From Eledone cirrhosa (Eukaryota), in contig OZ024743.1 of the NCBI GenBank assembly GCA_964016885.1, positions 25,730,001-25,794,000 on the forward strand: 64,000 nt of DNA, written 5' to 3'. Every line of letters starts with the position of its first letter. Positions within the stretch are counted from its first letter, which is position 1. Position numbers and translations under genes: made by a program. This document shows, in pieces, positions 21,643 to 22,110 of this stretch. The notes under the pieces were generated by a model that did not search any database, had not been told where the DNA came from, and saw only the letters and a list, made by a program, of their open reading frames with translations.

Positions 21643-22110
21643 GTAAGTATGTATGTATGTATCCGTACATACATATATGTATACAGACGTACAGTAGTAT
21701 GTATATATATATACATACATGCACACATATATATATGCACGTATCGGTTTACCGAACATTTATTATAATGCTCTGTTTGTTTGTTTGTAAACAAACAAAC
21801 AGCCCGAATTACGCCGTACAGTGTTTAGGCAACCACGTCACCTTTTTGTTCAACATTGACATAGGAACGATGGTTGCCTAAACACTGTACGGCGTAATTC
21901 GGGCTGTTTGTTTGTTTACAAACAAACAAACCGAGCATTATAATAAATGTTCGGTAAACCGATACGTGCATATATATATGTGTGCATGTATGTATATATA
22001 TACATACTACTGTACGTCCGTATACATATATGTATGTACGTATACATACATACTTAGATTTAAGTAAGTGCCGTACTAAGAGTGAGAAATGAAATTTCGT
22101 TTCATTCTAT
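21643..22110. mobile_element. Fold-back copy of the 418-nt hammerhead family also present at 37460-38420, lacking the ribozyme core
   Basis: Arms ~21643-21835 and ~21868-22055. Shares accgaacatttattataatgctc and ccgtactaagagtg.gaaatgaaatttcgtttcatt with the 37.5-38.4 kb element. Confidence 0.85.

What the first reader, a model, noticed from the sequence alone, without database searches (positions are those of the whole stretch)
21643..22110. Fold-back point falls within a few nucleotides of the predicted hammerhead cleavage site
Seen: this element is homologous to 37460-38420. There the ribozyme strand reads GAAACUAGUA^CAGCGUUCCUUUGUCAGUGUUGAAC. In this copy the cDNA-sense strand runs ...gttcaacattgacataggaacg (to 21869), stopping about 3 nt short of the cleavage site, then turns back as atggttgcc. 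The turn matches an upstream complementary patch (gcaaccatcgtt in the 37.6 kb copy). Inference: the template was a ribozyme-cleaved RNA, RT ran off its 5' end and the cDNA self-primed. This would be a genomic fossil of in vivo self-cleavage.
Basis: partly seen in the sequence, partly recalled or inferred. Interest (0 to 1): 0.85.

Follow-up and report, generated by a model that had tools for sequence, protein, structure and literature searches.

The report
Inverted ribozyme retroelement copy, weak cut-site signal
This is one of many thousands of copies of a small non-coding jumping element that carries a predicted self-cutting RNA; this copy has two arms joined head to head, likely from two separate reverse transcripts, and one arm ends exactly at the predicted cut site, but across the genome such ends are under twice the background rate, so it is a weak hint, not proof, that the RNA cuts itself in the animal.

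Summary
The inverted repeat is real. The copy belongs to a ~420-445 nt tandem non-LTR retrozyme (non-autonomous Penelope-like element) with a minimal type I hammerhead. Against its own subfamily, the left arm ends exactly at the predicted cleavage site (+1, window 21872), not 3 nt short.

Of 28,659 copies that reach +1, 39 diverge there and 31 of those are true ends. Seven control positions give 12-39. In a sample, 8 of 261 arm ends lie within 6 nt of the site, against 7.3 expected. 177 of 256 arms read through a site. A 1.6-1.8x excess remains for inversion junctions at +4..-2 (post hoc).

Simple self-priming does not fit the geometry: the right arm runs 57 nt beyond the start of the left arm. 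In 62 of 65 classifiable head-to-head copies, one arm starts at ~+220 and the other at ~+277. This points to two cDNAs joined by microhomology.

Verdict: ordinary Penelope-type insertion; about 40% chance this arm records a cleaved RNA end.

The parts
21586..21640 (.). Left flank, (TA)n target microsatellite
21638..21872 (-). Left arm: retrozyme subfamily B positions +223 (at 21638, start site S1) to +1 (at 21872, first base after the predicted hammerhead cut); no hammerhead core in this copy
   Evidence: 96.9% identity to a natural B unit over 223 nt
21834..21838 (+). Patch complementary to the left arm's end (2 exact nt, 5 of 6 with a bulge); the same patch lies in any second cDNA of the element
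   Evidence: sequence, alignment
21867..21872 (.). Head-to-head junction: +1 of the left arm joined to about +38/+40 of the right arm
   Evidence: four junctions of this position type among 24 at +1, with different flanks and arm lengths
21871..22119 (+). Right arm: subfamily B positions ~+38 to +280 (start site S2)
   Evidence: 97.2% identity
22063..22119 (+). ~57-nt 'tail' between start sites S1 and S2, present only on the right arm (left edge approximate)
22117..22199 (.). Right flank, (TA)n target microsatellite
37453..37857 (-). Second copy in the window (subfamily A), left arm, ends at S1 and reads through an intact hammerhead (37666-37713)
37858..38425 (+). Second copy, right arm, 1.35 units (period 418), ends at S2 and reads through an intact hammerhead
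38116..38163 (+). Minimal type I hammerhead with a short palindromic helix III; predicted cut 38155/38156

Best explanation
This is a head-to-head insertion of a hammerhead-bearing tandem retroelement (non-LTR retrozyme type) whose two arms start at two fixed sites 57 nt apart, and it was likely made by a Penelope-like RT/GIY-YIG protein that would prime two cDNAs, one from each end of a cut in (TA)n, and join their 3' ends through a short microhomology. Shown: the arm anatomy, the two fixed start sites S1 (~+220) and S2 (~+277), their near-obligate pairing, and the spread of junctions along the whole unit. Inferred: mobilisation by a Penelope-like protein, two cDNAs, and end joining. The usual template is inferred to be an uncut multimer or a cut-and-religated circle, because most arms read through the cut site. 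The left cDNA of this copy stopped exactly at the predicted cut. That is about as likely to be chance plus microhomology as run-off from a cleaved 5' end (my estimate: 40% cleaved).
For: 3' ends are bimodal: 121 at S2, 107 at S1, 35 other, of 263 arms. Of 87 head-to-head pairs, 62 are S1+S2, 3 are S1+S1, 0 are S2+S2 and 22 have an unclassified end (P=1e-15 for 62 of 65); 0 tail-to-tail pairs. Single-arm loci use either site (38 S2, 23 S1, 6 other of 67), so both act as independent starts. Arm lengths are uncorrelated (rho 0.03, P=0.82) and 26 of 62 pairs, like the focal copy, fit no simple snap-back. Junction overlaps of 2-6 nt are far above random. 5' ends are spread over the unit, with 8 of 261 within 6 nt of the site against 7.3 expected, P=0.45. 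The 3' flank is a dinucleotide repeat for 147 of 228 arms. The genome holds RT + C-terminal GIY-YIG ORFs (938 aa at L552), and related ORFs carry a weakly scoring minimal hammerhead downstream. In vitro, a Penelope-like protein cuts and extends both strands, starts RT at two adjacent internal sites that define the tail, and uses uncleaved RNA (PMC11167929, parts 1-2 read).
Against: The S1 arm reaches further 5' in 43 of 61 untied pairs (P=0.002), so the arms are not symmetric. 15 of 87 junctions have long palindromic centres, as expected of snap-back (some are artefacts of the AT-repeat region). 61 of 62 pairs share a subfamily, and arms are closer to each other (4.4%) than to other loci (6.3%, 29 pairs); a hairpin model predicts this too. 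No autonomous element sharing this unit was found in 50 GIY-YIG loci. Inversion junctions are 1.6-1.8x enriched at +4..-2, which pure chance does not predict.
Confidence: 0.7

Rival explanations
1. One reading: RT ran off the 5' end of a ribozyme-cleaved RNA and the cDNA snapped back on itself, so the copy is a fossil of in vivo cleavage and cleaved RNA is the normal template.
For: The arm ends exactly at +1. At +1, 9 of 24 inversions rejoin 5-45 nt downstream, against 15 of 129 elsewhere (P=0.004). Snap-back after full-length cDNA is documented for R2 transgenes (PMC11371274, passages read), and self-priming was proposed for Penelope palindromes (PMC3846280, passages read).
Against: No peak: 31 true ends among 28,659 copies at +1, against 12-39 at seven controls; all true ends near vs control P=0.13. 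177 of 256 arms cross a site. The right arm has 57 nt that the left arm could not template. Control -21 also shows local rejoining, 6 of 11.
Confidence: 0.08
2. Minority model, compatible with the best explanation: a small share (<0.5%) of templates are linear RNAs with a ribozyme-made 5' end. The left cDNA of this copy ran off such an end and annealed to a second cDNA.
For: Inversion junctions at +1 number 24, against 11-13 expected; the ratio at +4..-2 is 1.62-1.78 (rank P=0.015 and 0.005, 5 vs 7 positions). Local rejoining is enriched at +1. Helix I shows a compensatory change among subfamilies.
Against: The inversion-only subset was chosen after seeing the data. +4 is as high as +1 (29 vs 24). 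Six positions were scaled from the first 30 hits. The microhomology model counts exact matches only. An RT pause at the stable hairpin around the site (z -2.3 to -2.7) would give the same excess.
Confidence: 0.35
3. Extrachromosomal hairpin model: one cDNA self-primes, is copied into a palindrome, and the endonuclease trims one end at S1 during integration.
For: It explains same-subfamily arms, arm similarity, palindromic centres and the S1-arm bias. Earlier authors ascribe the tail to endonuclease resolution (PMC8557442, passages read).
Against: S1 and S2 both occur alone in single-arm copies. The S2 arm is the further-reaching one in 18 of 61 pairs. 0 S2+S2 pairs were seen, though untrimmed hairpins would give them.
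Confidence: 0.17
4. Assembly or long-read fold-back artefact, or a later DNA-level inverted duplication.
For: No listed public contig spans the junction (a hole there proves nothing).
Against: The arms differ by 4 substitutions and a 2-nt indel over about 188 nt, and one has 57 extra nt. The same S1/S2 anatomy recurs at 62 loci.
Confidence: 0.04

Closest known systems
Metazoan non-LTR retrozymes (PMC7229834, passages read; bioRxiv 10.64898/2026.07.22.740005, part 1 and passages read)
   Same: Non-coding tandem unit with one type I hammerhead per unit, low GC, dispersed monomers to multimers, co-occurring with Penelope-like elements. A circular RNA is proposed there as the RT template.
   Different: The unit (418-455 nt) is at the upper end of the reported range. 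The hammerhead is of the minimal, palindromic-helix-III type seen in Penelope-like elements. In the passages I saw, neither paper describes head-to-head insertions or maps junctions against the cut site.
Penelope-like elements, Penelope/Poseidon type (PMC8557442, PMC3846280, PMC4209133 passages; PMC11167929 parts 1-2)
   Same: Partial tandems, an inverted 5'-truncated copy, a tail on one arm only, AT-rich targets, two RT start sites, a minimal hammerhead expected to act as a dimer, and uncleaved RNA as the main substrate in vitro.
   Different: No ORF. The tail is ~57 nt rather than 30-40 nt. No autonomous partner was identified here.
R2 snap-back 5' junctions (PMC11371274, passages read) and L1 twin priming (recalled, not read)
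   Same: A cDNA 3' end primes on complementary DNA through microhomology and leaves an inversion.
   Different: In R2 snap-back the copied arm is nested inside the first cDNA and ends at no fixed place. Here both arms have fixed, different 3' start sites and overlap widely. L1 twin priming (recalled) inverts without duplicating.

Membership tests
Type I hammerhead ribozyme (minimal, PLE type) | Conserved catalytic core and NUH triplet around three helices | tested here: met
   Of the core columns, all but two are invariant in 19 aligned copies: the variable N position, and C3, which the tool also lists as invariant. 96.8% of cells are paired. Rfam gathering gave no hit.
Type I hammerhead ribozyme (minimal, PLE type) | Covariation in helices | tested here: met
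   One helix I pair takes three forms (6, 6 and 5 of 18 rows); 0 of 500 shuffles reach the score. It is a single pair, inherited by subfamily, and the rows were hand-picked as the commonest variants.
Type I hammerhead ribozyme (minimal, PLE type) | Self-cleavage at the predicted bond | not testable with these tools
   No assay. The genomic proxy is inconclusive.
Non-LTR retrozyme | Tandem 150-450 nt units, each with a type I hammerhead, no ORF | tested here: met
   33 cut-to-cut units of 420-464 nt; array at L017; no ORF of 150 aa or more over the element in the window.
Non-LTR retrozyme | Expressed as linear and circular monomer RNA | not testable with these tools
   No RNA holder listed; not evidence either way.
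Penelope-like element (non-autonomous derivative) | Partial tandem, inverted 5'-truncated copy, tail on one end | tested here: met
   87 head-to-head pairs, 62 of 65 with the tail on one arm only.
Penelope-like element (non-autonomous derivative) | AT-rich or microsatellite target | tested here: met
   147 of 228 classified 3' flanks are dinucleotide repeats; no genome background was computed.
Penelope-like element (non-autonomous derivative) | Sequence shared with the pLTR of an autonomous RT-GIY-YIG element in the same genome | tested here: inconclusive
   Autonomous-type ORFs exist with weakly scoring minimal hammerheads of other sequence (17-19 bits). None of 50 loci, out of 10,597 candidates, shares the unit beyond low-complexity matches or nearby separate insertions.
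Penelope-like element (autonomous) | RT plus GIY-YIG ORF | tested here: not met
   No ORF in the element.
Snap-back (self-primed) insertion | Copied arm nested within the first cDNA | tested here: not met
   The right arm exceeds the left by 57 nt at the 3' side, and the left exceeds the right by ~38 nt at the 5' side.

The most novel reading that the evidence does not exclude
This family keeps a genomic record of its whole RNA cycle. A dimeric Penelope-type protein primes two cDNAs at two fixed sites on a ribozyme-made circle, which is why nearly all arms read through the cut and young arrays have near-identical units on both arms. A rare un-ligated linear RNA leaves an arm that stops at the cut, as in this copy. 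A census of ~29,000 copies would then measure in vivo hammerhead cleavage and settle how Penelope inverted repeats form.
Probability: 0.3. Interest if true: 0.6.

Novelty: new member of a known kind. Interest (0 to 1): 0.36.

Why it matters
Whether Penelope-type hammerheads cut in vivo, and how the inverted repeats and tail arise, are open questions. One in vitro study found uncleaved RNA to be the substrate and no RNA-seq reads ending at the cut (PMC11167929). This family offers tens of thousands of natural insertions in one genome. They show that linear cleaved RNA is at most a rare template. They also show that the two arms almost always start one at each of two sites (62 of 65), which favours two-cDNA priming over the published self-priming idea.

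Tried and rejected
Rfam at gathering threshold: 0 hits in the window. DNA search of the own genome with a 141-nt stretch: nothing, because common words are skipped. Pattern counts were used instead.

Expression: no RNA holder listed. Contigs of four runs laid on 21400-22300: none listed spans the junction and one run laid nothing, so this is uninformative. One contig from another organism matches the left arm to 21872 and then continues into the hammerhead, which agrees with the +1 reading.

Search for an autonomous partner: long ORFs beside 521 loci (not classified by a family search) and 50 GIY-YIG loci gave no shared unit.

Earlier scan findings: none.

Literature: searches found no paper that maps retrozyme or Penelope junctions against the hammerhead site. 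The library is open-access only, and I read no supplements; those of PMC11167929 and PMC7229834 may bear on this.

Rejected: the '3 nt short' reading (wrong subfamily). Rejected: the 60 apparent ends at -2 as a peak, because TA-ending controls give 58 and 47. Rejected: the alternating units at L074 as a dimeric circle, because later tandem duplication explains them. Positions +5, +6 and -1 were not counted, and only +1 and -12 have genome-wide baselines.

Full report
Observation. The element at 21638-22119 is a near-perfect inverted repeat (arms 21704-21835 and 21871-22002, 99%, 35 nt apart) set in (TA)n. It is homologous to 37453-38425. That second copy holds two hammerhead motifs, 38116-38163 (+) and 37666-37713 (-), with the predicted cut at 38155/38156. 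Positions below are counted from that cut (+1 = first base after it). Rfam finds nothing at gathering threshold. An alignment of 19 copies, picked as the commonest variants among 685 occurrences, keeps the catalytic core, pairs 96.8% of cells, and has one helix I pair in three compensating forms. Helix III is two pairs around a palindromic loop, the type described as needing a dimer and cleaving poorly in vitro (PMC4209133, passages read).

The family has subfamilies. The focal copy matches subfamily B (96.9% and 97.2%) better than A, the 37.5 kb copy (89.7% and 92.1%). In B the third base after the cut differs, so window 21870-21872 still belongs to the left arm, which ends exactly at +1. The right arm begins at about +38/+40 through 2 exact shared bases (5 of 6 with a bulge).

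What the family is. Exact patterns give 12,570, 19,716, 1,410 and 28,659 matches in the 3.0 Gb own genome. Cut-to-cut units are 420-464 nt (33 units) and occur as partial tandems and arrays, with no ORF over the element. This fits the non-LTR retrozymes (PMC7229834, passages; bioRxiv 10.64898/2026.07.22.740005, part 1 and passages), and the anatomy is that of Penelope-like elements: inverted 5'-truncated copy and a tail on one end (PMC8557442, PMC3846280, passages). The genome has RT plus C-terminal GIY-YIG ORFs, some with weakly scoring minimal hammerheads downstream. No partner sharing this unit turned up in 50 loci.

Test 1, sample. I mapped 263 arms in 157 of 158 merged loci. Two arms cut by a locus edge were dropped. 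Of 261 5' ends, 8 fall within 6 nt of the site, against 7.3 expected from the flanking 108 nt (P=0.45). 177 of 256 classifiable arms read through at least one site (7 unclassified). The second copy in the window turns far from the site.

Test 2, genome-wide. For twelve positions I counted an exact 21-mer ending there followed by three non-matching bases. Raw counts: +8 21, +4 44, +3 41, +2 37, +1 39, -2 60, -6 21, -12 34, -18 58, -21 14, -25 47, -27 15. Baselines were 28,659 at +1 and 27,042 at -12; other baselines were similar in the sample. Small indels and duplicated loci were then removed. All hits were examined at six positions; at +4, +3, +2, -2, -18 and -25 only the first 30 were examined and the result scaled. 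True ends: 18, 38, 22, 21, 31, 46, 12, 23, 39, 13, 39, 12. The means are 31.6 near the site and 22.3 at controls (rank P=0.13). The rate at +1 is 0.11% raw and about 0.2% corrected, equal to the sample-wide hazard of 0.26% per nt. There is no sharp peak.

The residual signal. Inversion junctions alone are 1.62-1.78 times more frequent at +4..-2 than at seven controls (rank P=0.015 and 0.005). At +1, 9 of 24 rejoin 5-45 nt downstream, against 12 of 75 at controls (P=0.03) and 15 of 129 at all other positions (P=0.004); however, -21 shows 6 of 11. The subset was chosen after seeing the data, +4 is as high as +1, four of the nine use a favourable microhomology, and an RT pause at the hairpin is an alternative. 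If the excess is real, about half of the +1 inversions come from cleaved RNA, under 0.5% of all passes. I put the chance that this copy records a cleaved end at about 0.4.

Mechanism. 3' ends cluster at S1 (~+220; 107 arms) and S2 (~+277; 121 arms), with 35 other. Of 87 head-to-head pairs, 62 are S1+S2, 3 are S1+S1, none is S2+S2, and 22 have an unclassified end; none is tail-to-tail. Single-arm loci use either site. Arm lengths are independent, and 26 of 62 pairs fit no simple snap-back. The focal copy is of this kind: its left arm starts at +223 while its right arm runs to +280, so the left cDNA cannot have templated the right arm. The simplest reading (inferred) is two cDNAs, primed from the two ends of the target cut at S1 and S2, joined 3' to 3' by microhomology. 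This matches an in vitro Penelope-like protein that cuts and extends both strands, starts RT at two adjacent internal sites defining the tail, is predicted to dimerise and does not need hammerhead cleavage (PMC11167929, parts 1-2 read). Against it: the S1 arm reaches further in 43 of 61 pairs, 15 of 87 junctions have long palindromic centres, and arms share a subfamily in 61 of 62 pairs. A hairpin trimmed by the endonuclease therefore remains a rival.

What the lack of a peak means. It refutes linear cleaved RNA as the usual template. It does not refute cleavage, because a religated circle, the proposed retrozyme intermediate (PMC7229834, discussion passage), would be read through. At L017, nine units on both arms differ by 0-3 substitutions per 250 nt, as expected from repeated copying of one template, though a uniform source array explains it too. 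No RNA holder was listed.

Verdict. A new family member of a known kind. Seven literature searches (open-access library, no supplements read) found no such junction census, so the S1/S2 pairing count has some value to specialists. Interest 0.36.

Noticed in passing
window 21430-21580: A second small head-to-head palindromic insert, from a different family, with a type I hammerhead-like core on the + strand near 21520-21570 (read by eye; fold z about 0; not hit by model R1).
   Followed up: partly
window 22200-22390: A near-perfect palindrome (fold z = -18). Related sequence lies near Penelope-like ORFs in L560, L562 and L569, so it is probably a pLTR-derived inverted insert of another family.
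   Followed up: partly
window 25510-25555 (-): A minimal hammerhead-like motif (20.9 bits) of the same sequence as those downstream of RT-GIY-YIG ORFs in L555, L556 and L561.
   Followed up: partly
L017 (G000:C1:9968245-9972400): A young head-to-head array; nine units on both arms differ by 0-3 substitutions per 250 nt. Candidate rolling-circle product.
   Followed up: partly
L074 and L251: Higher-order repeats of the unit: an alternating two-unit pattern at L074 and a ~20 kb array at C1:70.056-70.076 Mb, consistent with later satellite-like expansion.
   Followed up: no
L552:2809-5622 (-): An uninterrupted 938-aa ORF with RT and C-terminal GIY-YIG hits, a candidate autonomous Penelope-like element.
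   Followed up: partly
window 49086-64000: A 38-bp satellite array, about 393 copies, 94% matches.
   Followed up: no
window 36142-36924 (-) and 38791-42105: Broken ORF pieces that look by eye like a Penelope-type endonuclease region and LINE-type RT fragments; no family search was run.
   Followed up: no
sample histogram, +120..+139: The highest bin of 5' ends (31 of 261) lies in the self-complementary AT-rich stretch, not at the hammerhead; partly an alignment effect.
   Followed up: no
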